From Candidatus Nomurabacteria bacterium (GTDB lineage Bacteria > Patescibacteriota > Minisyncoccia > Phycocordibacterales > UBA9973), in assembly GCA_026395965.1 (NCBI GenBank), contig JAPLXS010000007.1, positions 1 through 49,653 on the forward strand: a DNA stretch of 49,653 nucleotides, in the 5' to 3' direction. This document shows positions 1-42,057 of this stretch, in pieces (positions within the stretch are counted from its first letter, which is position 1; each line of letters begins with the position of its first letter). Under the pieces are notes generated by a model. That model was not told the DNA's origin. It searched no databases and saw nothing but the letters and a program-made list of their open reading frames with translations. The position numbers and the translations under genes are program-made.

Positions 1-272
1 GTCGTGCAAGAGAAACTTTCTCAGGCAACGAATTTGGTTTAACATCCTTTGCTCTTGGCTGTATGGCATTGGTTCACCCTGAACGCTATGTCCGCTCCGA
101 AGAACTTGATACCGATTGTGCAGGTGACGAATTTGCTCCTGATGCTGATGGCGTGTTCTCGAAGGCTCCTTTCTTCTACTTCCACGATGACAAGCTTTGG
201 TTCGGCGCGTGCGGTGTGTCCGATGCCTGCGGTGGCTATGGTTCGGCTTCGGCGTTCGTTCCGCAGAATTGA
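1..272 (+). CDS. 3' end of an unidentified protein-coding gene that runs off the left edge
   Basis: Frame 3 is open from the window edge to TGA at 270-272 (...FYFHDDKLWFGACGVSDACGGYGSASAFVPQN*). A hairpin terminator follows. The segment is visibly more G+C-rich than everything downstream. No family recognised. Confidence 0.45.
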   Translation, partial: RARETFSGNEFGLTSFALGCMALVHPERYVRSEELDTDCAGDEFAPDADGVFSKAPFFYFHDDKLWFGACGVSDACGGYGSASAFVPQN

Positions 273-337
273 CGATTGTACTTTGAACGTTTGAGTCTTT
301 TGTTTTTTTTTGATCCTTGCGTTCGAATTTTTTTAAG

Positions 338-368: not shown

Positions 369-454
369 AATACTAATTAAAACAAGTATTATTTTTGTTG
401 TAGAGGAAGGATAAATATCTTGCAATTTTGTGATTTTATAGGTATTCTTAATAT

Positions 455-668
455 ACGCGTTGAAGAGGTTATCACCTCTGAGCCCTAATCAAAAAAACGG
501 GCAAGCGTTGGGAAGAAAGCCTTTATTGGTAAGTAGAACCCTTTGACCGACATTGAAAAATGTTTAGGTCTTTAAATGAGAAGTAAATGAGGTGGTACCA
601 CGTGTTTCAATAGAAACTCGTCCTTGTATAACAATTGTTATTGTTGTACGTGGACGAGTTTTTTTGTT
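455..668 (+). promoter_or_regulatory. T-box leader (tRNA-sensing riboswitch) of ileS
   Basis: T-box sequence AAATGAGGTGGTACCACG lies at 585-602. It is followed by a terminator hairpin, ACTCGTCC (616-623) / GGACGAGT (652-659), plus a T-run. A candidate Ile specifier ATC at 488-490 sits in the loop closed by GCCC 482-485 / GGGC 499-502. The element lies directly upstream of ileS. Confidence 0.8.
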
Positions 669-798
669 TTTATTATAAAATTAATATTAATAATAAATAA
701 AACTGCACAAATTATATTCTAAAAAAGGTCCTCGGACGAGGGAGGACGAGGAGCCAGACCATTTTTTATAAAATAATTTGTTACGTTTAATGTAATTT

Positions 799-3700
799 AT
801 GGAAGAAAAAGATCAAAAAACAAATAGTGCATTGCGAGAAGAGGCAGTTTTAAAATTTTGGAATGAAAACAAAATATTTAAAAAGAGTTTAGAAAAGAAA
901 TCTCCACTTGGCGATTATGTTTTCTATGAGGGTCCTCCAACTGCAAATGGTAAACCAGGGATTCATCACTTGGAAGCTCGCGCTTTCAAAGATGCTATTC
1001 CTCGTTATAAAACAATGAGAGGGTATCATGTAGGAAGAAAAGGTGGGTGGGACACTCACGGTCTTCCTGTAGAACTTCAAGTTGAAAAAAAGTTGGGATT
1101 ATCTTCCAAGAAAGCCATTGAAGAATACGGAGTTGCTCAATTTAACAAAGAATGCAAAGAAAGTGTTTGGGAATACGTAGATCTATGGGAAAAATTTACA
1201 GAAAGAATCGGTTTTTGGGTAGACCAAGAAAACCCTTATGTGACATATCACAATGATTATATTGAGTCAGTCTGGAATGTTATAAAAGAATCCAAAAAAC
1301 AAGATTTACTTTATAAAGATTACAAAATCGTTCCTTGGTGTCCTAGATGTGGAACAGGTCTTTCTTCTCACGAGCTTGCACAAGGGTACCAGGATGTAAA
1401 AGATTTATCAGTATATGCAAAGTTTAAAATAAAACAGCTTCAAAATATTCCTATTTCTTCACGCTTTACCCCAGAGGGGCCATACACGACTCAGAAATCG
1501 GAAGATTTATCATCTGTTTACATATTAGCTTGGACTACAACTCCATGGACTCTACCCGGGAATGTTGCACTTGCTGTCGGTGAAAATATCGATTATGTAA
1601 AAATTAAAATTGCTAAAAATTCTTCATCAGATTCAGAGTTTTATATATTAGCAAAAGCCCGACTATCTATCATCACAGAAGAATATGAAATAGTAGAAGA
1701 AATGAAAGGCAAAGATTTGGTTGGTTTAGAATACGAACCATTGTATCCATATCTTGAAAATATAATTTCAGAAGTTGAAAAACCTAAACTAGAAAAAGCC
1801 TATAAAATATATAATGCGGACTTTGTAACAACAGAAGATGGTACTGGAGTGGTACACACAGCAGTTATGTATGGACAGGATGACTTTGTATTAGGTAATA
1901 AACTGGGTCTTCCAAAACACCATATAGTAGGACTAGATGGTAAATTTCTCGAGGGCACAGGATTCCTCGAAGGAAGATTTGTGAGAGACGAAGAAGTCGC
2001 CGTAGATATAATAAAAGATTTAGCTCATAGAGGATTTTTATTTAAGAAAGAAAAATACGAGCACTCATACCCACATTGCTGGCGTTGTAAAACAGCACTT
2101 ATCTACTATGCTCGAGATTCTTGGTATATAAGAATGTCTTCTTTAAAAGATAAACTTATTGAAGAAAATAAAAATATAAATTGGGAGCCAGCTCATGTGA
2201 AAGATGGTCGTTTTGGCGAGTGGATAAAAGATATAAAAGATTGGGCAATTTCTCGTGAAAGATATTGGGGAACACCTATGCCAGTCTGGTCTTGTGATTT
2301 ATGTAAAGAAATAGAAGTATTGGGAAGTATAGAAGACATAAAATCAAAAACTAAAAAGTCAGGAAATAAATACATCGTCATGAGACATGGCGAGACTGAA
2401 TGTAATTTGAGAGGCGAAGTAAGTAGTACTGTAAACAATGACGATAATTTAACAAAACTTGGAATAGAACAAGTTATAAAATCTGCAAATGAATTAAAAA
2501 ACCAAAAGATTGATTTGATTATTTCTTCTCCATTTGTGAGAACAAGAGAGACTGCGGAACTGTTGGCAGATAAAATTGGCTTCAACAAAGAAAGTATAAT
2601 CTTTGATGAAAGACTACATGAAATGTCACTTCCAATGTATGAAGGTAAAAAGTGGGATGAATATCACAATGACTATCCAAAGACAGTAGAAAACTTTTCT
2701 AAGGCGCCAGAAGGCAATGAGTCTTATGAAGATGTCAGACGCAGATCTATGAGTTTTTTATATGAAATTGAAAAAACATATTCTGGAAAAAATATATTAA
2801 TCATTACTCATGGAAGCCCTGTTTGGCAGATGTTTTCAGAAGTAAGTGGTTTAAGCACAGAAGAATCTCTAGGTATAATAGTAAATAATAAATTATTTAA
2901 TTATATAAAAAACGGAGAGTTTGTAGAGCTACCATTTGTACCACTTCCTCATGATGAAGATTTCAAGATTGATCTACATAAACCATATATAGATGAAATA
3001 AATCTTGTGTGTGGATGCGGAGGTGTTCTTTCTAGAACAAAAGAAGTTATGGATGTGTGGCTTGATTCAGGGGCTATGCCTTTTGCTCAAAGTCATTATC
3101 CATTTGAAAATAAAGAAATACAATACCCAGCAGATTTTATCAGTGAAGCTGTAGATCAAACAAGAGGATGGTTTTATACACTTCATGCAGTGGGTGTAAT
3201 TATGGGAAGAGGTAATGCATATAAAAATGTGATATGTCTTGGCTTGCTTCTTGATGCAAAAGGAAAGAAAATGTCAAAATCTATAGGAAATATAGTAGAC
3301 CCATGGTTAATGATGGATAAATATGGAGTAGATACACTCAGACTTTGGATGTATTCTGTAAATCAACCAGGAGAATCAAAAAACTTTGATGAAAAAATAA
3401 TTGCAGAATTGCACAATAAAGTATTCAATCTACTTTACAATGTGATAGCATTTTATGAGCTTTATAGAGATAAAGAAGTAGAAAGTACAAATGAGAAAGT
3501 AGAAAGTACAAATATATTGGATAAATGGATTTTAGCTAGACTAGATGAATTGGTTGTTTTGTGTACAGAAAAATTAGATGACTACAAGCTTCTTGAACCT
3601 GTTCGCGGGATTCGTGAGTTTATAGACGACCTTTCAACTTGGTATTTACGCCGTTCACGTGACAGAATAAAAGAAGGAGATATAGAAGCAAAGACAACTA

Positions 3701-4335
3701 TATATTATGTGTTTAAAACATTAGCAAAATTGATGGCTCCATTTGCTCCATTTTCATCAGAAGATATTTGGCAGAAATTAAAAAATGATAAAGACGAAGA
3801 AAGTGTGCATTTGGCAGGTTGGCCAAGTATTCAATTAGGAATTAATAATGAAGAATTAATAATTGAAGGTATGCAAAAAGCGAGAGAAATTGTAACTCTA
3901 GGATTACAAGCAAGACAAAAAGCTGGTATTCCAGTTAGACAACCACTAGGAGAATTACGAATTACGAATTACGAATTACGAAAAGAATATAATGAAATTA
4001 TTAAAGATGAGTTGAATGTAAAAGAAATTACTTTAGAAAAAGGAGAAGAGCAGAATGTTTCAATAGATACTCATATTACTGAAGATCTAAAAAAGGAAGG
4101 CCAGTACCGTGAATTACTTCGTGCAATACAAGATATTCGCAAAAAGAATGGTTTAAATCCTAGCGATGTTATAGTTCTTAATATCGAAACAAATAATGAT
4201 GGACAATCATTGATAAACAAATTCAAATCAGAATTAATTAAGTCTGTTAGTGCAAAAGAAATACAAATAAAAGAAAACGATGGTGTTGAAATAAAGATTG
4301 ATGAATTTGTATTTAGGGTTGTTATTGAAAAATAA
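799..4335 (+). CDS. ileS: Isoleucyl-tRNA synthetase carrying an internal histidine-phosphatase-like insertion (1178 aa)
   Basis: Class I aaRS motifs are present: PPTANGKPGIHH (HIGH region) and KKMSKS. The ORF is collinear with IleRS over the CP1 editing and anticodon-binding regions. An extra ~200 aa at residues ~520-723 carries RHGE and THG motifs. Confidence 0.95.
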   Translation: MEEKDQKTNSALREEAVLKFWNENKIFKKSLEKKSPLGDYVFYEGPPTANGKPGIHHLEARAFKDAIPRYKTMRGYHVGRKGGWDTHGLPVELQVEKKLGLSSKKAIEEYGVAQFNKECKESVWEYVDLWEKFTERIGFWVDQENPYVTYHNDYIESVWNVIKESKKQDLLYKDYKIVPWCPRCGTGLSSHELAQGYQDVKDLSVYAKFKIKQLQNIPISSRFTPEGPYTTQKSEDLSSVYILAWTTTPWTLPGNVALAVGENIDYVKIKIAKNSSSDSEFYILAKARLSIITEEYEIVEEMKGKDLVGLEYEPLYPYLENIISEVEKPKLEKAYKIYNADFVTTEDGTGVVHTAVMYGQDDFVLGNKLGLPKHHIVGLDGKFLEGTGFLEGRFVRDEEVAVDIIKDLAHRGFLFKKEKYEHSYPHCWRCKTALIYYARDSWYIRMSSLKDKLIEENKNINWEPAHVKDGRFGEWIKDIKDWAISRERYWGTPMPVWSCDLCKEIEVLGSIEDIKSKTKKSGNKYIVMRHGETECNLRGEVSSTVNNDDNLTKLGIEQVIKSANELKNQKIDLIISSPFVRTRETAELLADKIGFNKESIIFDERLHEMSLPMYEGKKWDEYHNDYPKTVENFSKAPEGNESYEDVRRRSMSFLYEIEKTYSGKNILIITHGSPVWQMFSEVSGLSTEESLGIIVNNKLFNYIKNGEFVELPFVPLPHDEDFKIDLHKPYIDEINLVCGCGGVLSRTKEVMDVWLDSGAMPFAQSHYPFENKEIQYPADFISEAVDQTRGWFYTLHAVGVIMGRGNAYKNVICLGLLLDAKGKKMSKSIGNIVDPWLMMDKYGVDTLRLWMYSVNQPGESKNFDEKIIAELHNKVFNLLYNVIAFYELYRDKEVESTNEKVESTNILDKWILARLDELVVLCTEKLDDYKLLEPVRGIREFIDDLSTWYLRRSRDRIKEGDIEAKTTIYYVFKTLAKLMAPFAPFSSEDIWQKLKNDKDEESVHLAGWPSIQLGINNEELIIEGMQKAREIVTLGLQARQKAGIPVRQPLGELRITNYELRKEYNEIIKDELNVKEITLEKGEEQNVSIDTHITEDLKKEGQYRELLRAIQDIRKKNGLNPSDVIVLNIETNNDGQSLINKFKSELIKSVSAKEIQIKENDGVEIKIDEFVFRVVIEK

Positions 4336-5002: not shown

Positions 5003-6901
5003 ATGATTGAAGATAGTAAAAACAAAATTGAAGATATAAAAAGACATCTTTATGACCCCAATGATAAAACTATTGGTCACCAAAGAGAAGGGATTTTGCA
5101 TCAAGTTAATCATCCTGTTAGTGAAGAATGGAAAATAGATGAATCTAATCTGAATGATAAAATGAATAATAAATACAAAAAACCGCCAGTATCAATTTTT
5201 AAAAAGTTTTTTATTATATCAGCTGTTTTTTTTGTAGGGGCAATAGGTTTTGCTGTCTATAAATTTTCAAGTAGTAATATTTCTGTTTCTAACGATAAAA
5301 TAAATATAAATGTTATTGGTAATGCTTTTACAAAAGGAGGGGATGATCTGTCTCTTCAAATTGAAATTTCCAATACAAATAATTCAAACCTTCAACTCGC
5401 AAATTTAATAGTAGAATATCCAAAAGGAGCTGGGGATAATGCTAATGACGTTGTGCGTTTACCAAGAGATTCAATAGGTACAATCAAACCAGGTGAAACT
5501 GTTATTCGTAATATTAAAGTTAAACTTTTTGGTGAGGAAAAATCTATTAAAAATATTAAAATTAGCTTAGAGTATCATCCAGAAGGATCAAATGCTATTT
5601 TTACTAAGGACAAATTGTATCCTGTTACTATAAGCTTGGCCCCAGTTTCCCTAAATATAGAGGCTCCAACAAGTGCAACTTCAAACCAGCCAGTTTCATT
5701 TAAAATTACAACAACACTAAATACTTCTCTTCCTGACGAAAATCCTATTTTGCAGGTAACATATCCAAACAATTTCGTTTTTGATAGTGCTATTCCTTTA
5801 CCAACTTTAGGCAATTCTACTTGGGATATTTCATCTCTTACAACTACAAATCCAGTGGTAATAGAAGTAAAAGGACGCCTGATAGGTCAAGATGGTGAAG
5901 AGCAAGTTTTCCATGCTTATGCAGGTACAACAAATGGAACAAATCAATCCGTCGTGAATGTTATTTATAGTTCTATATTGCAGAAAGTTACAATAGCAAA
6001 ACCATTTCTTAATGCAACTATATTGGTCAATGGTATTGATAAAACAGAGTACTCAGTTTCAGGTGGTGAGAATATAAATGCCGAAATATCTTGGTCCAAT
6101 AATCTAACTACACGCATAACTGATGGTCAAATAATTGTTAGTTTGTCGGGTAATGTCTTCGACAAAAATTCAGTAAATCCATCCAATGGTTTTTATGATT
6201 CTGCAAATAATCAAATTATCTGGGACAAAAATTCAATTGCTGAATTAGGTGAAATAAATCCAGGTAACAAAGGAACTGTTTCATTTAGTTTTAAACCATT
6301 GGCTTTGATCGGACTATCTTCAATAAAAAACCCACAAGTTTCTATAAAAGTAAGTATTCGTGGACGTGAACCACTATTGGGTTCTACTTATAATGCTATT
6401 AATAATTTTTCTGAAAAAATAATAAAAGTATTATCTGATTTTCAAATTGCTTCATCTGCAGCATATTTAGCAGGAAGCTTGCCTCCAAAAGTAGAGACAG
6501 AAACAAAATATACTATTACTTGGACTCTTTCAAATTCAGCCAATACTATAAACCAAGCTCAAGCACGCTCATCTTTACCTATATATGTAAAATGGATAGG
6601 ACTAACTCCCGGAGAAAATGAAAATGTAACTTACAATGATATTACGAGAGAAGTGATATGGAATATCGGGTCTGTTCGTCCAAATACTGGCATAGATTTA
6701 AACCGTGAAGCATCATTTGTTCTTTCATTAAATCCTTCTAGTTCCCAGTTCGATAGTGTCCCTCAACTTATGAAAGATATCTATCTTTCTGGAATAGATT
6801 CATTTTCAAATACTTCAATCAAGAGCACTCGTGGTTCTGTCTCGACTTCACTAGCAGATGATCCAAATTTCCTACCTATCAACGGACGTGTTACTAAATA
6901 A
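5003..6901 (+). CDS. Hypothetical N-terminally membrane-anchored, beta-rich extracytoplasmic protein
   Basis: 632-aa ORF with one TM segment (FFIISAVFFVGAIGFAVYKF). The rest is Ser/Thr/Asn-rich and looks like repeated Ig/CARDB-like beta domains. No motif recognised. Confidence 0.6.
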   Translation: MIEDSKNKIEDIKRHLYDPNDKTIGHQREGILHQVNHPVSEEWKIDESNLNDKMNNKYKKPPVSIFKKFFIISAVFFVGAIGFAVYKFSSSNISVSNDKININVIGNAFTKGGDDLSLQIEISNTNNSNLQLANLIVEYPKGAGDNANDVVRLPRDSIGTIKPGETVIRNIKVKLFGEEKSIKNIKISLEYHPEGSNAIFTKDKLYPVTISLAPVSLNIEAPTSATSNQPVSFKITTTLNTSLPDENPILQVTYPNNFVFDSAIPLPTLGNSTWDISSLTTTNPVVIEVKGRLIGQDGEEQVFHAYAGTTNGTNQSVVNVIYSSILQKVTIAKPFLNATILVNGIDKTEYSVSGGENINAEISWSNNLTTRITDGQIIVSLSGNVFDKNSVNPSNGFYDSANNQIIWDKNSIAELGEINPGNKGTVSFSFKPLALIGLSSIKNPQVSIKVSIRGREPLLGSTYNAINNFSEKIIKVLSDFQIASSAAYLAGSLPPKVETETKYTITWTLSNSANTINQAQARSSLPIYVKWIGLTPGENENVTYNDITREVIWNIGSVRPNTGIDLNREASFVLSLNPSSSQFDSVPQLMKDIYLSGIDSFSNTSIKSTRGSVSTSLADDPNFLPINGRVTK

Positions 6902-35011: not shown

Positions 35012-35527
35012 ATGAAAAATGATTTCAAAAAAGGAGAAACATCTCCTGGTTTAGTTGAGTTTATTGAAAAAATTAAAAAATATAATCATGAATTTTTCAC
35101 AAAAGTTTTAGTAGATACTAAAACTAAAAAAGTTACTTTATTTTCAGGTAAATTCTACTCTTCTATTGATTGTGAAATTGGTAGAAATGGATCTGTCTTA
35201 CTTAAAGATAGTAAAGAAGGAGATGGTAAAACTCCAATTTGTTCTACCCGAGTAAGGCATATAGATATGCCTACATTACGAATAAATAATCATAAATCTG
35301 CTGTTTTTACAAAAACATTAGATTTAAAGATTAATCTTGGTCCTTGTTTTATTTGTTTGTATATTCCAAACATTAAAACAGATAAAATCCGTGGAATAGG
35401 ATTTCATGGTTATTGTGACGATAGAGATGGGTTAGTTCCTACTGATGGTTGTATTAGACTTTCCAATGCAGATTTACTTCTCATAAGAAAATTCTTTTTT
35501 AAAAATCTTAAAATTTTCATTGTATGA
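35012..35527 (+). CDS. L,D-transpeptidase (YkuD) catalytic-domain protein with no evident signal peptide
   Basis: GIGFHGYCDDRDGLVPTDGCIRLSNADL matches the YkuD H-G...(S/T)xGC(I/V)R(L/M) active-site motif. Confidence 0.6.
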   Translation: MKNDFKKGETSPGLVEFIEKIKKYNHEFFTKVLVDTKTKKVTLFSGKFYSSIDCEIGRNGSVLLKDSKEGDGKTPICSTRVRHIDMPTLRINNHKSAVFTKTLDLKINLGPCFICLYIPNIKTDKIRGIGFHGYCDDRDGLVPTDGCIRLSNADLLLIRKFFFKNLKIFIV

Positions 35528-36033
35528 AAGAAATTCCGAGAGACGGAGCATTTGTTGTCATATTTTCTGGTTCACTAGAAAAATGGGAAGAAATGGAATT
35601 TTTACTTGGAAGTAATATTCACGATAATTTATTTGAATTATTGGGTGGAGGTTTCGATATCTCCGATGTTACTCCAAATGAAGCTGCTTGTAGGGAAGTT
35701 TATGAAGAGACAAAAGGTATGTTATCTGTTGAAAAAGACAGAATACACTATTTTTGTCACATGATTCAAAAACTTCCTAGATTAGGAGATGATGAAAAGG
35801 GTCATGTTTTTTATTTTTATAAAAAATGCGATTTGATCAAAGGTTTGGAACCAAGTTCTGAACATCATTTACTTAGTTGGCACAAACTCAGCGATATTTT
35901 GATTGATGGTGAAAAATCATACAGAACATCGACACTGAGAATTATAGTTCTTTTCCTAAAATATATTTCTAATAGAGAATTTCATTTTGGAATTCTCGGA
36001 GAAAAAGTAATTTTTAGAGACTATAAATTTTAA
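35524..36033 (+). CDS. NUDIX hydrolase
   Basis: Nudix box GGGFDISDVTPNEAACREVYEETKG. Its ATGA start/stop overlap with the upstream gene shows that TGA is a stop. Confidence 0.75.
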   Translation: MKEIPRDGAFVVIFSGSLEKWEEMEFLLGSNIHDNLFELLGGGFDISDVTPNEAACREVYEETKGMLSVEKDRIHYFCHMIQKLPRLGDDEKGHVFYFYKKCDLIKGLEPSSEHHLLSWHKLSDILIDGEKSYRTSTLRIIVLFLKYISNREFHFGILGEKVIFRDYKF

Positions 36034-40596: not shown

Positions 40597-42057
40597 TTAA
40601 TTATTACCAAATGAAAGAAATTTTGAAAGTAGGCTGTTTGATTTCATGTGGGCATGTATACGTTTTCGAGCAAGGCTTGTTTTTGCATAATCTAACCATT
40701 TTGCAGAGGGTTTAGAATTTTTGTTTGTATGAATTTCTACGATATCATTGTTTTTTAGTTTTGTACTAAGAGCAGAATTTTTTCCATTTATTTTGGATCC
40801 TTGAGCATGATCTCCTACATCTGTATGGATTGCATATGCAAAATCAATAACAGAAGAATCTTCTGGTAAGTCTATGATATCTCCTTTTGGTGTAAATACA
40901 AAAACTCTATTATTAAAGAAATCCATTTTTATTGATTTTAAAAATTTTTCTGGATCTTCTTTATTTTGATTTAATTCATGAAGTTGTTGCACCCATTCAA
41001 GATGTCTTGGTACACTTTTTTCATTTTTTTCTTTATATAAGAAGTGAGCAGCAATACCATTTTCAGCTTTTTCATGCATTTCATATGTACGAATTTGTAT
41101 TTCTGCTATTCCACCTGTTCCTGTAAATATGGTTGTATGCAAACTCTGGTATCCGTTTGCTTTTGGTGTGGCTATATAGTCTTTTATACGGTTTGGTACA
41201 GGTGTCCATTCTCCATGAATAAGTCCAAGTATATGATAACAATCAACAACAGATTCAACCATGACACGGAGGGCTATAATGTCGTATATCTTGGTTATAT
41301 CCATATCATTTTTCTGGAGTTTTTTCCAAAGAGAATATAGATGCTTTTGTCTGTAGTCTATCGTTGCATTTTTTATATTTGATTCTTTAACCTTTTCTTC
41401 AATTTTGTTTTTAATTTCAATTAAATATTTTATTCGAGCATCTTTTTTATCAGAAAGTAATTTTTTAACTTCTTCATATTCTTTTGGATATGCAAATTTA
41501 AATGCACCATCTTCAAGTTTGCCCTTGAGTCTACCCATAGAAAGACGGTTGGCTAGGGGAACATATATCTCAAGAGTTTCAAGTGCTATACGTTTTTGTT
41601 TATCTGGCCGAACATTTTCTAGAGTTTCTATATTGTGTAATCTATCTGCAAGTTTAATAACAAGAACACGTAAATCTTTTGCAACTGAAATAAAAAACTT
41701 TCTTAAATTTTCTACATTTCTTTCTATGCCTTTATATCTAACCATACCAAGCTTTGTAACTCCTTCTACTAAGTTTGCTATTTCTTCACCAAATTCTTTT
41801 TTTAATTCATCTTCTGTTATATTTGTGTCTTCTATAACATCATGAAGTAACCCAGCTGCTATAACAGTAGGACTCATTCCAAGGTCTGCTAGGTTTTGAG
41901 CAGTGCTTACAACGTGAATAAAGTATGGGTCACCATTTTTGCGAAGTTGTCCTTCGTGAGCTTTTTTTGCAAAATTATATGCCTTTTCTATAAGTGCTTT
42001 ATCTTTTTCTGTAATATTGGGTATAAAAGACAGTATTTTATCTATTGTTGGTATCAT
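40597..42057 (-). CDS. rsh: RelA/SpoT homolog, (p)ppGpp hydrolase/synthetase with a TGS domain and no ACT domain
   Basis: HD hydrolase motif (LLHDVIEDT), synthetase region (YQSLHTTI...EIQIRT) and a TGS domain (VFTPKGDIIDLPEDSSVIDFAYAIH). Confidence 0.85.
   Translation of the reverse strand: MIPTIDKILSFIPNITEKDKALIEKAYNFAKKAHEGQLRKNGDPYFIHVVSTAQNLADLGMSPTVIAAGLLHDVIEDTNITEDELKKEFGEEIANLVEGVTKLGMVRYKGIERNVENLRKFFISVAKDLRVLVIKLADRLHNIETLENVRPDKQKRIALETLEIYVPLANRLSMGRLKGKLEDGAFKFAYPKEYEEVKKLLSDKKDARIKYLIEIKNKIEEKVKESNIKNATIDYRQKHLYSLWKKLQKNDMDITKIYDIIALRVMVESVVDCYHILGLIHGEWTPVPNRIKDYIATPKANGYQSLHTTIFTGTGGIAEIQIRTYEMHEKAENGIAAHFLYKEKNEKSVPRHLEWVQQLHELNQNKEDPEKFLKSIKMDFFNNRVFVFTPKGDIIDLPEDSSVIDFAYAIHTDVGDHAQGSKINGKNSALSTKLKNNDIVEIHTNKNSKPSAKWLDYAKTSLARKRIHAHMKSNSLLSKFLSFGNN

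What the first reader, a model, noticed from the sequence alone, without database searches (positions are those of the whole stretch)
2356..2967. Complete histidine-phosphatase (PGAM-like) domain inserted inside isoleucyl-tRNA synthetase
The ileS ORF is 1178 aa, well above the usual IleRS length. It is collinear with IleRS on both sides of residues ~520-723. The insertion falls between ...YWGTPMPVWSCDLCKEIEVLGSIEDIK and DLHKPYIDE...VMDVWLDSGAMPF, where IleRSs normally have only a short linker.

The ~200 extra residues carry the hallmark residues of histidine phosphatase superfamily branch 1 (phosphoglycerate mutase/CobC/SixA-like). These are YIVMRHGETECN (RHG catalytic His, nt 2383-2391), SSPFVRTRETA (second Arg) and ILIITHGSPV (distal His, nt 2809-2811). 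The reading frame is continuous, and there are no intein-like termini.

I do not know of a described aaRS with an intact-looking phosphatase domain spliced into the catalytic body. Possible roles are acting on a phosphorylated nucleotide by-product such as Ap4A-type compounds, on a tRNA 2',3'-cyclic or 3'-phosphate end, or serving as a regulatory module. All of these are speculation.
Basis: partly seen in the sequence, partly recalled or inferred. Interest (0 to 1): 0.75.

Follow-up and report, generated by a model that had tools for sequence, protein, structure and literature searches.

The report
Phosphatase domain nested inside isoleucyl-tRNA synthetase
An essential protein-synthesis enzyme of a tiny-genome (CPR/Paceibacteria) bacterium has a complete, apparently working phosphatase spliced into one of its surface loops; the feature is real, shared by hundreds of related species and has arisen repeatedly, but apart from one sentence in a 2013 paper it has not been studied, so what the phosphatase does is unknown.

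Summary
ORF 799-4335 (1178 aa) is a type-2 IleRS. About 203 residues (aa 515-717, nt 2341-2949) form a histidine-phosphatase branch-1 domain (Pfam E=3e-35). It is nested in the zinc-knuckle CP3 connective peptide, where solved IleRSs have about 5 residues.

It is not an assembly artefact. All 120 closest homologues carry it, at least 444 GTDB species genomes carry it, and 80 of 80 fetched loci have it in frame. The catalytic set Arg-His...Arg...Glu...His is intact in 227 of 230 IleRS-embedded copies.

New findings:
- The closest free-standing relatives are separate genes abutting the 5' end of insert-less ileS in syntenic loci.
- The same domain family sits at three or more other IleRS loops, and in CP3 of ValRS, in Gracilibacteria/Peregrinibacteria. 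It occurs in 1-4 copies, sometimes alongside GNAT, P-loop kinase, HAD, hydrolase or DUF559 modules.
- One sentence in Kantor et al. 2013 noted an SR1 IleRS split by a Nudix and two PGAM domains; I found no follow-up.

Best reading: an active PhoE/PspA-like phosphomonoesterase, not a mutase, that is a dedicated partner of the synthetase. Its substrate is unknown.

The parts
799..4335 (+). ileS ORF, 1178 aa: type-2 isoleucyl-tRNA synthetase with a nested phosphatase domain
   Evidence: TIGR00392 867.7 bits; closest PDB entries are 8C8W and 1ILE.
958..969 (+). Class I signature motif in its non-canonical form, G54-I55-H56-H57 (GXHH instead of HXGH)
   Evidence: Sequence. Conserved across 120 homologues. 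The motif is described for IleRS2 in PMC10485003.
2293..2304 (+). First Cys pair of the CP3 zinc knuckle (C499-x-x-C502)
   Evidence: Conserved in 119 of 120 homologues. The T. thermophilus IleRS CP3 has a zinc-binding motif (PMC7191050).
2341..2949 (+). Inserted segment, aa 515-717: Lys-rich linker (KSKTKKSGNKY), histidine-phosphatase domain and return strand
   Evidence: Gap in the alignment to 8C8W. Insert length 194-205 aa in 120 homologues. AF2 pLDDT 93.2.
2374..2889 (+). Pfam His_Phos_1 core, aa 526-697
   Evidence: E=3.3e-35. Foldseek top hits are PhoE 1H2E, GpgP and PspA.
2383..2391 (+). R529-H530-G531: RHG motif. H530 is the predicted phospho-accepting nucleophile.
   Evidence: Invariant in 120 of 120 homologues. 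R and H present in 228 of 230 IleRS-embedded copies.
2404..2406 (+). N536, a conserved residue of the phosphate pocket
   Evidence: 119 of 120.
2539..2541 (+). R581, the second catalytic Arg (SSPxxR)
   Evidence: 120 of 120; 230 of 230.
2620..2622 (+). E608, the predicted general acid/base
   Evidence: 120 of 120. E or D in 230 of 230.
2809..2811 (+). H671, the distal catalytic His
   Evidence: 120 of 120; 228 of 230.
3010..3018 (+). Second Cys pair of the CP3 zinc knuckle (C738-G-C740)
   Evidence: 119 of 120.
3052..3072 (+). DVWLDSG motif, where the second half of the catalytic fold resumes
3268..3282 (+). KMSKS signature motif (aa 824-828)
3520..4332 (+). Anticodon-binding domain (aa 908-1050) and type-2 C-terminal domain DUF5915 (aa 1085-1178)
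451..672 (+). T-box-like leader with a terminator hairpin upstream of ileS. This is the likely regulator of the whole fusion gene.
   Evidence: RF00230 at 40.2 bits, E=1.6e-7, below the gathering score. Hairpin 608-666, -32.5 kcal/mol, z=-6.4.

Best explanation
SHOWN.
- The gene encodes a type-2 IleRS in which an autonomous histidine-phosphatase (branch 1) domain of about 203 aa is nested at the tip of the zinc-knuckle CP3 connective peptide, outside the Rossmann/HUP core.
- The domain has the complete catalytic apparatus of a phosphomonoesterase: His530 as nucleophile (forming a phospho-histidine intermediate), Arg529, Arg581, His671 and Asn536 as the phosphate pocket, and Glu608 as acid/base.
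- Its fold is that of the small phosphatases PhoE, PspA and GpgP, not of a true phosphoglycerate mutase.
- It is the fixed state of ileS throughout Paceibacteria.
- In related lineages whose ileS lacks the insert, the closest homologue of the domain is a separate gene that abuts or overlaps the start of ileS.
- The same domain family has been nested at three or more other loops of IleRS, and in CP3 of ValRS, in other CPR classes. It occurs in up to four copies, and in IleRS the catalytic residues are almost always kept (some ValRS copies vary at the Glu and distal-His columns).

INFERRED.
- The phosphatase is a dedicated partner activity of the synthetase. It is made 1:1 with it, here under the same T-box-like leader.
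- It acts beside the synthetase rather than taking part in aminoacylation chemistry.
- My favoured but unproven substrate class is a phosphorylated nucleotide or ribose end that the synthetase encounters. Examples are a blocking 2'/3'-phosphate on the tRNA acceptor end, or a nucleotide by-product or adenylate-mimic inhibitor. I do not favour a glycolytic intermediate.
For: - Domain identity and intact chemistry.
- Confident autonomous fold (pLDDT 93.2, pTM 0.91), closest to PhoE 1H2E, GpgP and PspA at rmsd 2.4-3.0 A, against 6-7 A for dPGMs.
- Position in CP3.
- Lineage-wide and in frame: 120 of 120; at least 444 species genomes; 80 of 80.
- Deep vertical inheritance: the flanks and the insert have diverged about equally, to about 40%, in distant IleRSs.
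- Split-gene state: free-standing P0163, P0176, P0179 and P0197 lie directly upstream of insert-less ileS (10-nt overlap, or 1- or 9-nt gap). The loci are syntenic with the window (ileS-recO-DUF7619-glyS) but have different upstream genes.
- No second phosphatase gene lies near any of the 80 insert-bearing ileS loci.
- Recurrent independent nesting: the domain occurs at sites S1a, S1b, S2 and S3 in IleRS.
- It occurs in CP3 of ValRS in 70 of 119 homologues. The ValRS inserts are only about 31% identical to the IleRS inserts, against 40-44% for the free-standing proteins.
- One 744-kb contig carries the domain in both IleRS and ValRS. This is redundant for a mere housekeeping enzyme in a genome of about 1 Mb.
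- A non-homologous HAD phosphatase is nested in one IleRS that lacks His_Phos_1.
Against: - There is no biochemical evidence, and the substrate is a guess.
- Characterised members of this family act on small metabolites or phosphoproteins. I know of no precedent for RNA ends.
- The variety of insertion sites and copy numbers argues against a precise geometric relation to the synthetic or editing site.
- Three of three insert-less valS loci have no phosphatase neighbour.
- Unrelated modules, including endonuclease-like DUF559, share the same loops. The loops may therefore simply be permissive.
- Some ValRS copies vary at the Glu and distal-His columns.
- CP3 is not reported as a tRNA-contacting element in the yeast IleRS-tRNA structure paper.
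- I could not obtain model coordinates to measure the distance from His530 to A76 or to the KMSKS motif.
Confidence: 0.55

Rival explanations
1. Hitch-hiker. The domain is an ordinary small-molecule (metabolite) phosphatase with no functional link to IleRS. It landed in a solvent-exposed, insertion-tolerant loop of a neighbouring essential gene, and it persists because this guarantees expression.
For: - The closest structures are metabolite phosphatases: PhoE, PspA, GpgP, CobC and HFP.
- Several different loops accept it, and unrelated modules (DUF559, hydrolase, GNAT) use the same loops.
- Adjacency to ileS could explain why ileS became the host without any functional link.
- A free-standing DUF559 gene lies next to an ileS with a nested DUF559.
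Against: - The hisphos-ileS pairing is conserved while the upstream genes differ.
- The same family was nested independently in ValRS and at three or more IleRS sites.
- A single genome of about 1 Mb or less keeps several intact copies, each in a class Ia synthetase.
- A HAD phosphatase is nested in an IleRS that lacks His_Phos_1.
Confidence: 0.25
2. Missing glycolytic enzyme. The insert is the cell's cofactor-dependent phosphoglycerate mutase, which would explain why PGM seems absent from some Parcubacteria.
For: - The best NCBIfam hit is the short archaeal dPGM model NF038349.
- Jaffe et al. [quoted passage not shown]
Against: - It scores far below every mutase cutoff: NF038349 96-101 bits against 225, and TIGR01258 22.7 against 81.7.
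- Foldseek aligns dPGMs at rmsd 6-7 A, against 2.4-3.0 A for phosphatases.
- The domain is about 45 aa shorter than dPGMs.
- Two to four copies per protein, and copies in both IleRS and ValRS, are not expected for a glycolytic enzyme.
Confidence: 0.06
3. Sensor or regulatory module. The domain binds or is phosphorylated by a metabolite, with phospho-His530 as a state variable, and allosterically tunes IleRS activity to energy status rather than turning over a substrate.
For: - The catalytic residues needed for phospho-histidine formation are conserved.
- The domain is attached next to the second half of the catalytic fold.
- These organisms have few regulators. This last point is my own background knowledge and was not tested here.
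Against: - The free-standing gene form and the variable sites and copy numbers fit poorly with a defined allosteric path.
- There is no evidence of co-varying interface residues.
Confidence: 0.07
4. Selfish mobile insertion: a domain cassette that spreads into conserved genes by a homing-like process, with no benefit to the host.
For: - It is patchily present or absent in syntenic valS loci.
- Tandem multiplication occurs.
- It co-occurs with endonuclease-like DUF559 modules.
Against: - There are no intein or Hint features.
- It is fixed and vertically inherited across Paceibacteria, and its divergence matches that of the host.
- The catalytic pentad is kept in 227 of 230 copies, which a passenger with no function would not maintain.
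Confidence: 0.05
5. Assembly or annotation artefact: a chimeric contig, or two genes read as one.
For: None found. Metagenomic origin alone raises the prior.
Against: - The same in-frame architecture appears on hundreds of independent contigs from NCBI, JGI, ENA and Logan.
- Composition is uniform across the junctions.
Confidence: 0.01

Closest known systems
Small branch-1 histidine phosphatases: B. stearothermophilus PhoE/YhfR (1H2E, 1EBB), H. thermophilus PspA phosphoserine phosphatase (4IJ5), M. tuberculosis GpgP Rv2419c (4QIH, 6S2Q)
   Same: Same fold (Foldseek prob 1.0, TM 0.71-0.76, rmsd 2.4-3.0 A). Same catalytic residues. Similar size of about 200 aa.
   Different: Only 22-28% identical. 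These are free-standing proteins, whereas this domain is nested inside a synthetase. It is below every NCBIfam equivalog cutoff, so substrate specificity cannot be transferred.
[quoted passage not shown] 2013, PMC3812714)
   Same: A CPR IleRS interrupted by PGAM-family domains. This is the only literature mention I found.
   Different: It is from a different phylum and has a different arrangement: three inserts including a Nudix. It is a one-sentence remark with no analysis. The OD1 genome in the same paper (RAAC4_OD1_1) carries the single CP3 insert (L014), but the paper does not mention it. I did not retrieve the SR1 protein itself.
Type-2 IleRS: P. megaterium IleRS2 (8C8U/8C8W) and T. thermophilus IleRS (1ILE)
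   Same: Collinear over the whole synthetase (E=4e-236). Same CP3 zinc knuckle as T. thermophilus IleRS, same type-2 C-terminal domains, and the GXHH motif variant described for IleRS2.
   Different: About 203 extra residues in CP3.
NCBIfam NF040702 'isoleucine--tRNA ligase, N-acetyltransferase domain-containing' (ileS_w_GNAT), and the GNAT-bearing IleRSs of Gracilibacteria/Peregrinibacteria
   Same: A curated precedent for an IleRS that carries an extra enzymatic domain. Many of the GNAT-bearing IleRSs I found also carry His_Phos_1.
   Different: The window protein has no GNAT and scores 336 bits against a cutoff of 1999. Where I mapped it (P0396), the GNAT sits at another site, between DxWxDSG and KMSKS.
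Rv2228c-type bifunctional RNase H/acid phosphatase (NCBIfam PRK07238)
   Same: A CobC-like histidine phosphatase domain covalently joined to a nucleic-acid enzyme. It is the second-best NCBIfam hit for the insert.
   Different: That is an end-to-end fusion, not a nested one. The score is 90-94 bits against a cutoff of 326. The partner enzyme is different.
T4-type polynucleotide kinase-phosphatase (a works-like comparison only; recalled from memory, not tested)
   Same: Some relatives carry a phosphatase together with a P-loop AAA_33-type kinase on the same synthetase (P0457, P0472). This resembles the kinase plus phosphatase pairing that heals RNA ends.
   Different: The window protein has no kinase. 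The T4 phosphatase is HAD-type, not histidine-phosphatase. No ligase partner was identified. No activity on RNA is known for this family.

Membership tests
Histidine phosphatase superfamily, branch 1 (Pfam PF00300) | Profile match above the curated gathering score | tested here: met
   122 bits in the whole protein and 126.6 bits for the insert alone, against a cutoff of 21.7; profile positions 2-173 of 194.
Histidine phosphatase superfamily, branch 1 (Pfam PF00300) | RHG motif with the nucleophilic His, a second Arg, a Glu acid/base and a distal His | tested here: met
   R529, H530, G531, R581, E608 and H671 are invariant in 120 of 120 homologues. The pentad is intact in 227 of 230 IleRS-embedded copies.
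Histidine phosphatase superfamily, branch 1 (Pfam PF00300) | Alpha/beta fold of the superfamily | tested here: met
   AF2 pLDDT 93.2. Foldseek prob 1.0 and TM 0.71-0.76 to PhoE, GpgP and PspA.
Histidine phosphatase superfamily, branch 1 (Pfam PF00300) | Phosphomonoesterase or mutase activity through a phospho-histidine intermediate | not testable with these tools
   Needs an enzyme assay of the wild type and an H530A variant.
Cofactor-dependent phosphoglycerate mutase (dPGM) | Score above the equivalog or subfamily cutoff of a dPGM model | tested here: not met
   NF038349 95.8-101.2 bits against 225; TIGR01258 22.7 against 81.7; NF002901 52-57 against 261.
Cofactor-dependent phosphoglycerate mutase (dPGM) | Close structural superposition, including the mutase-specific elements | tested here: not met
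   dPGM and BPGM chains align at rmsd 5.3-8.5 A and are 30-50 residues longer. Phosphatases align at 2.4-3.0 A.
Named phosphatase equivalogs (CobC alpha-ribazole phosphatase TIGR03162; PspA NF045917; SixA TIGR00249) | Score above the curated cutoff | tested here: not met
   83-88 bits against 162.9; 61-65 against 350; 37 against 74.5.
Isoleucyl-tRNA synthetase, type 2 | ileS equivalog score; collinearity with solved IleRS2; CP1 editing domain; KMSKS motif; Anticodon_1 plus type-2 C-terminal domain | tested here: met
   TIGR00392 867.7 bits against 621.4. 8C8W E=4e-236, and the editing-domain chain 1WK8 matches aa 228-426. KMSKS at aa 824. PF08264 and PF19302 are present.
Isoleucyl-tRNA synthetase, type 2 | Class I HXGH signature motif | tested here: met
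   Present as the non-canonical GXHH variant (G54-I55-H56-H57). PMC10485003 shows this variant is functional in IleRS2.
Intein / Hint-domain insertion | Hint domain; Cys, Ser or Thr at both splice junctions; C-terminal His-Asn | tested here: not met
   No Hint or intein family in the Pfam scan. The junction residues are ...EDIK|SKTKK... and ...PFVPLP|HDEDF....
IleRS with GNAT domain (NCBIfam NF040702) | Score above cutoff; GNAT domain present | tested here: not met
   335.9 bits against 1999. No acetyltransferase family was hit.
RNA-end healing enzymes (PNKP-like), as a works-like hypothesis | 3'- or 2'-phosphatase activity on RNA or tRNA ends; partner 5'-kinase | not testable with these tools
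   The window protein has no kinase. Kinase modules occur only in some Gracilibacteria-type relatives.

The most novel reading that the evidence does not exclude
Class Ia synthetases of CPR bacteria serve as platforms for a resident repair or defence toolkit. In this reading the nested phosphatase keeps the synthetase or its tRNA serviceable under attack. In relatives it would work together with the nested P-loop kinase, GNAT, HAD, serine hydrolase and Nudix modules.

Possible actions:
- stripping a blocking 2'/3'-(pyro)phosphate from the tRNA CCA end;
- removing a phosphate placed on the KMSKS region by a HipA-like toxin kinase;
- destroying a phosphorylated adenylate-mimic antibiotic at its target.

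The co-occurring GXHH hyper-resistance motif would fit a history of selection by IleRS inhibitors.
Probability: 0.2. Interest if true: 0.9.

Novelty: new variant of a known kind. Interest (0 to 1): 0.68.

Why it matters
Aminoacyl-tRNA synthetases are among the best-studied enzymes. Extra catalytic domains in bacterial ones are essentially limited to editing modules.

Here a second, unrelated catalytic centre is nested in an essential synthetase across a whole bacterial class. It has been re-invented at several loops and in a second synthetase, and in sister lineages it is accompanied by acetyltransferase, kinase, HAD, hydrolase and (by report) Nudix modules.

If the phosphatase is coupled to the synthetase, it defines a new accessory function in translation, such as tRNA-end or enzyme repair, inhibitor defence or nucleotide clean-up, in organisms with minimal genomes.

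There is also a practical point. KEGG/COG-style metabolic reconstructions of CPR genomes can score this ileS as gpmB/COG0406. One fragment in the databases is labelled exactly that way. This could give false 'PGAM present' calls.

The split-gene versus nested states give a ready-made experimental pair.

Tried and rejected
- Rfam gathering-threshold scan of the window: only three tRNAs.
- The listing of cluster members for taxonomy of divergent hits: no names returned. It did show that the 'free-standing' P0143 clusters with a 723-aa protein, so it is probably a fragment.
I repeated it with a closer alignment.
- Literature searches for IleRS with histidine phosphatase, and for aaRS with CPR and phosphatase domain: nothing. 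A 2026 survey of 96,219 IleRS architectures does not mention it.
- Regex search for a Nudix box in all fetched IleRS and ValRS sequences: none. The SR1-type Nudix-bearing IleRS was not recovered by the last homology search either.
- Neighbourhoods of insert-less valS: no phosphatase gene in any of 3 loci.
- NJ tree of IleRS, to polarise the split and nested states: too poorly resolved to decide.
- My first reading that the HAD, hydrolase and GNAT modules occupy 'the same CP3 site' was wrong. Motif landmarks show they sit between DxWxDSG and KMSKS.
I therefore could not measure the distance or orientation of His530 relative to the synthetic site, the editing site or tRNA.
- I considered and rejected intein, assembly chimera and PGAM. 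See the rival explanations.
Full report
**1. What is in the window**

ORF 799-4335 (+) encodes 1178 aa. It is an isoleucyl-tRNA synthetase: TIGR00392 scores 867.7 bits against a cutoff of 621.4. Pfam finds tRNA-synt_1 in two stretches, Anticodon_1 and DUF5915. Between the two tRNA-synt_1 stretches it finds His_Phos_1 (PF00300) at aa 526-697, E=3.3e-35.

The closest solved proteins are type-2 IleRSs: P. megaterium IleRS2 8C8W (E=4e-236) and T. thermophilus 1ILE. Query 2-514 aligns to chain 2-474 and query 718-1119 to chain 480-892, so about 203 residues stand where the solved enzyme has about 5.

I place the insert at aa 515-717 (nt 2341-2949). GC content is uniform across the junctions, and no intein/Hint family is hit.

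**2. Where in the synthetase**

The insert lies between C499-x-x-C502 and DLHKPYIDE...C738-G-C740. In P. megaterium IleRS2 the HUP catalytic core is residues 40-168 and 513-632 (PMC10485003), so chain positions 474-480 fall in the connective-peptide region.

In the finer nomenclature this is CP3. [quoted passage not shown] The host loop is therefore a peripheral zinc knuckle, not the Rossmann core.

The full-length AF2 model has pLDDT 81.8 and pTM 0.70, with the insert at about 87-95. It superposes on IleRS2 structures.

**3. The domain looks like a working phosphatase**

Across 120 homologues that are 64-100% identical, R529, H530, G531, R581, E608 and H671 are invariant, and N536 is present in 119 of 120. 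Insert length stays within 194-205 aa.

The insert evolves faster than the synthetase core (about 0.52 identity to the query, against 0.75-0.82). Its rate is similar to that of the C-terminal domain (0.59).

Over all 230 IleRS-embedded copies I collected, the Arg-His-Arg-Glu/Asp-His pentad is intact in 227.

The insert alone folds with pLDDT 93.2 and pTM 0.91. Its nearest structures are small phosphatases: PhoE 1H2E, GpgP Rv2419c and PspA 4IJ5, at TM 0.71-0.76 and rmsd 2.4-3.0 A. True dPGM and BPGM mutases align at rmsd about 5-8 A and are longer.

It is below the cutoff of every named NCBIfam model, including dPGM_arch, CobC, PspA, SixA and GpmB. So it is a member of the superfamily, but no substrate can be transferred to it.

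**4. Not an artefact, and lineage-wide**

All 120 best full-length homologues (1138-1270 aa) carry PF00300. They come from NCBI, JGI, ENA and Logan and are named Paceibacterota, Pacebacteria or Nomurabacteria.

They include Paceibacteria, Nomura-, Yonath-, Adler- and Campbellbacteria, Minisyncoccia and the 2013 genome RAAC4_OD1_1. In 80 of 80 fetched loci the insert is in the same frame as both IleRS halves and contiguous with them.

An exhaustive search with the insert alone found embedded copies in IleRSs whose flanks are only 35-45% identical to the query, with the insert equally diverged. A 25-sequence alignment shows the same site throughout. Some lineages have lost all four knuckle cysteines but keep the insert.

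The other synthetase genes in the window (glyS, metG, serS) have no insert.

**5. The split-gene state**

The closest truly free-standing relatives are about 190-195 aa and 35-40% identical to the insert. They are not scattered around genomes.
- P0163 overlaps the start of an insert-less 938-aa ileS by 10 nt.
- P0176 ends 1 nt before a 972-aa ileS.
- P0197 ends 9 nt before a 949-aa ileS.
- P0179, and a second P0197 contig, are followed by ORFs that match the IleRS N-terminus.

Three further contigs were too short to tell.

Downstream, these loci are syntenic with the window (ileS-recO-large DUF7619-like protein-glyS), but their upstream genes differ. So it is the phosphatase-ileS pair that is conserved.

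The insert-less IleRSs keep a short CP3 knuckle: 82-86 residues, against 281 over the same region in the window protein. Conversely, none of the 80 insert-bearing loci has a second phosphatase region within 4 kb on either side.

A rough NJ tree places one operon-type IleRS basal and two among the insert-bearing lineages. The direction of change is unresolved.

**6. Recurrence elsewhere**

Some IleRSs carry two intact copies, and one ValRS fragment carries four.

A search with that ValRS fragment showed that 70 of 119 best ValRS homologues carry 1-3 copies. They are labelled Gracilibacteria or Peregrinibacteria, on contigs up to 1.4 Mb. The copies sit between WCISRQIWWGHRIPVWY and DTLDTWFSS, which is the homologous CP3 loop. 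Close relatives of 880-980 aa have about 25 residues there.

The ValRS inserts are only about 31% identical to the IleRS inserts, whereas the free-standing, ileS-adjacent proteins are 40-44% identical to them. This points to separate acquisitions. Some ValRS copies vary at the Glu and distal-His columns. Three insert-less valS loci have no phosphatase neighbour.

A search with a two-copy IleRS showed that 108 of 120 Gracilibacteria-, Peregrinibacteria- or Peribacteria-type IleRSs carry His_Phos_1. Among the 120:
- 16 carry GNAT domains;
- 5 carry P-loop AAA_33/AAA_18 (Zeta-like) kinases;
- 5 carry DUF559;
- one carries an alpha/beta serine hydrolase;
- one carries a HAD phosphatase and no His_Phos_1.

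Landmark motifs define at least four sites:
- S1a: CP3 before DLHxPYID. This is the site in the window protein and in all 118 Paceibacteria-type sequences I could parse.
- S1b: CP3 after DLHxPYID.
- S2: between DxWxDSG and KMSKS.
- S3: after KMSKS and the stem-contact fold, before the anticodon domain.

One 743,733-bp contig encodes both a ValRS with His_Phos_1 and an IleRS with DUF559 and His_Phos_1.

**7. Interpretation**

Four things are shown: the domain identity, the intact catalytic residues, lineage-wide vertical inheritance and recurrent nesting.

One thing is inferred. The phosphatase is likely a dedicated partner of the synthetase. This rests on the fusion together with the conserved adjacency, on independent re-nesting in two paralogous synthetases, on multiple intact copies in genomes of about 1 Mb, and on a non-homologous phosphatase nested in one IleRS.

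In this window it would be co-regulated with IleRS by the upstream T-box-like leader.

The substrate is unknown. I favour a nucleotide- or ribose-linked phosphomonoester met at the synthetase, such as a blocked tRNA end, a nucleotide by-product or an inhibitor. The main rival is a hitch-hiking metabolite phosphatase in a permissive loop.

The PGAM idea is disfavoured, even though PGM is reported missing in some Parcubacteria clades (PMC7304191).

**8. Novelty**

The only literature mention I found is one sentence in Kantor et al. 2013 (PMC3812714). [quoted passage not shown]

Databases detect the domain automatically, and NCBI curates an 'ileS_w_GNAT' model. I found no systematic or functional study.

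The finding is therefore real and under-explored, but it was not wholly unseen. I rate it a new variant of a known kind, with fairly high interest.

Noticed in passing
window 451-672 (+): T-box-like leader upstream of ileS. RF00230 scores 40.2 bits (E=1.6e-7), below the gathering score of 93, and the conserved GGUGGUACCACG lies at 589-601. Stem I is reduced to a tiny hairpin whose loop, UAUC, contains the Ile codon AUC. A strong terminator hairpin at 608-666 (-32.5 kcal/mol, z=-6.4) is followed by a T-run.
   Followed up: partly
window 958-969 (aa 54-57): The class I HIGH motif is the non-canonical GIHH (GXHH), conserved across the family. PMC10485003 links this swap in IleRS2 to mupirocin hyper-resistance.
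   Followed up: partly
window 1-300: GC is 0.50 here, against about 0.33 elsewhere. An ORF fragment in frame +3 runs off the left end, ends near nt 272 and has no Pfam hit. A terminator-like hairpin follows at 335-360. The unusual composition is unexplained.
   Followed up: partly
P0277-P0395; loci L092-L095: ValRS of Gracilibacteria/Peregrinibacteria carries 1-3 His_Phos_1 copies in the homologous CP3 loop in 70 of 119 homologues. The insert is present or absent between syntenic loci (UvrD-DUF192-valS).
   Followed up: partly
P0396-P0511 (IleRS of Gracilibacteria, Peregrinibacteria and Peribacteria): These IleRSs carry further nested enzymes: GNAT (16 of 120), P-loop AAA_33/AAA_18/Zeta-like kinase (5), DUF559 (5), HAD phosphatase (1) and alpha/beta serine hydrolase (1). 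Protein lengths reach 1859 aa. The modules sit at two or three recurrent loops.
   Followed up: partly
L096 1501-5634 and 6569-6925: An ileS with a nested DUF559 (Vsr/endonuclease-like) domain has a free-standing 118-aa DUF559 gene about 1 kb downstream. This parallels the phosphatase-next-to-ileS pattern and hints at local capture of neighbouring small genes.
   Followed up: no
P0152, P0128, P0134, P0144, P0187 (alignment): Some insert-bearing IleRS lineages have lost all four CP3 zinc-knuckle cysteines but keep the phosphatase insert at the same position.
   Followed up: no
window 5003-6901 (+): A 632-aa protein with no Pfam hit. It occupies the same syntenic slot (ileS-recO-X-glyS) as the 550-553-aa proteins with faint DUF7619 hits in L081 and L084.
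   Followed up: no
window 40597-42057 (-): A short Rel/SpoT homologue of 486 aa (HD_4, RelA_SpoT and TGS). The organism therefore probably retains (p)ppGpp metabolism. A small NUDIX protein lies at 35524-36033.
   Followed up: no
P0143: A 212-aa fragment of this domain from a TARA metagenome is labelled 'COG0406 K15634' (gpmB) and clusters with a 723-aa protein. Orthology-based metabolic reconstructions may count this ileS insert as a phosphoglycerate mutase.
   Followed up: no
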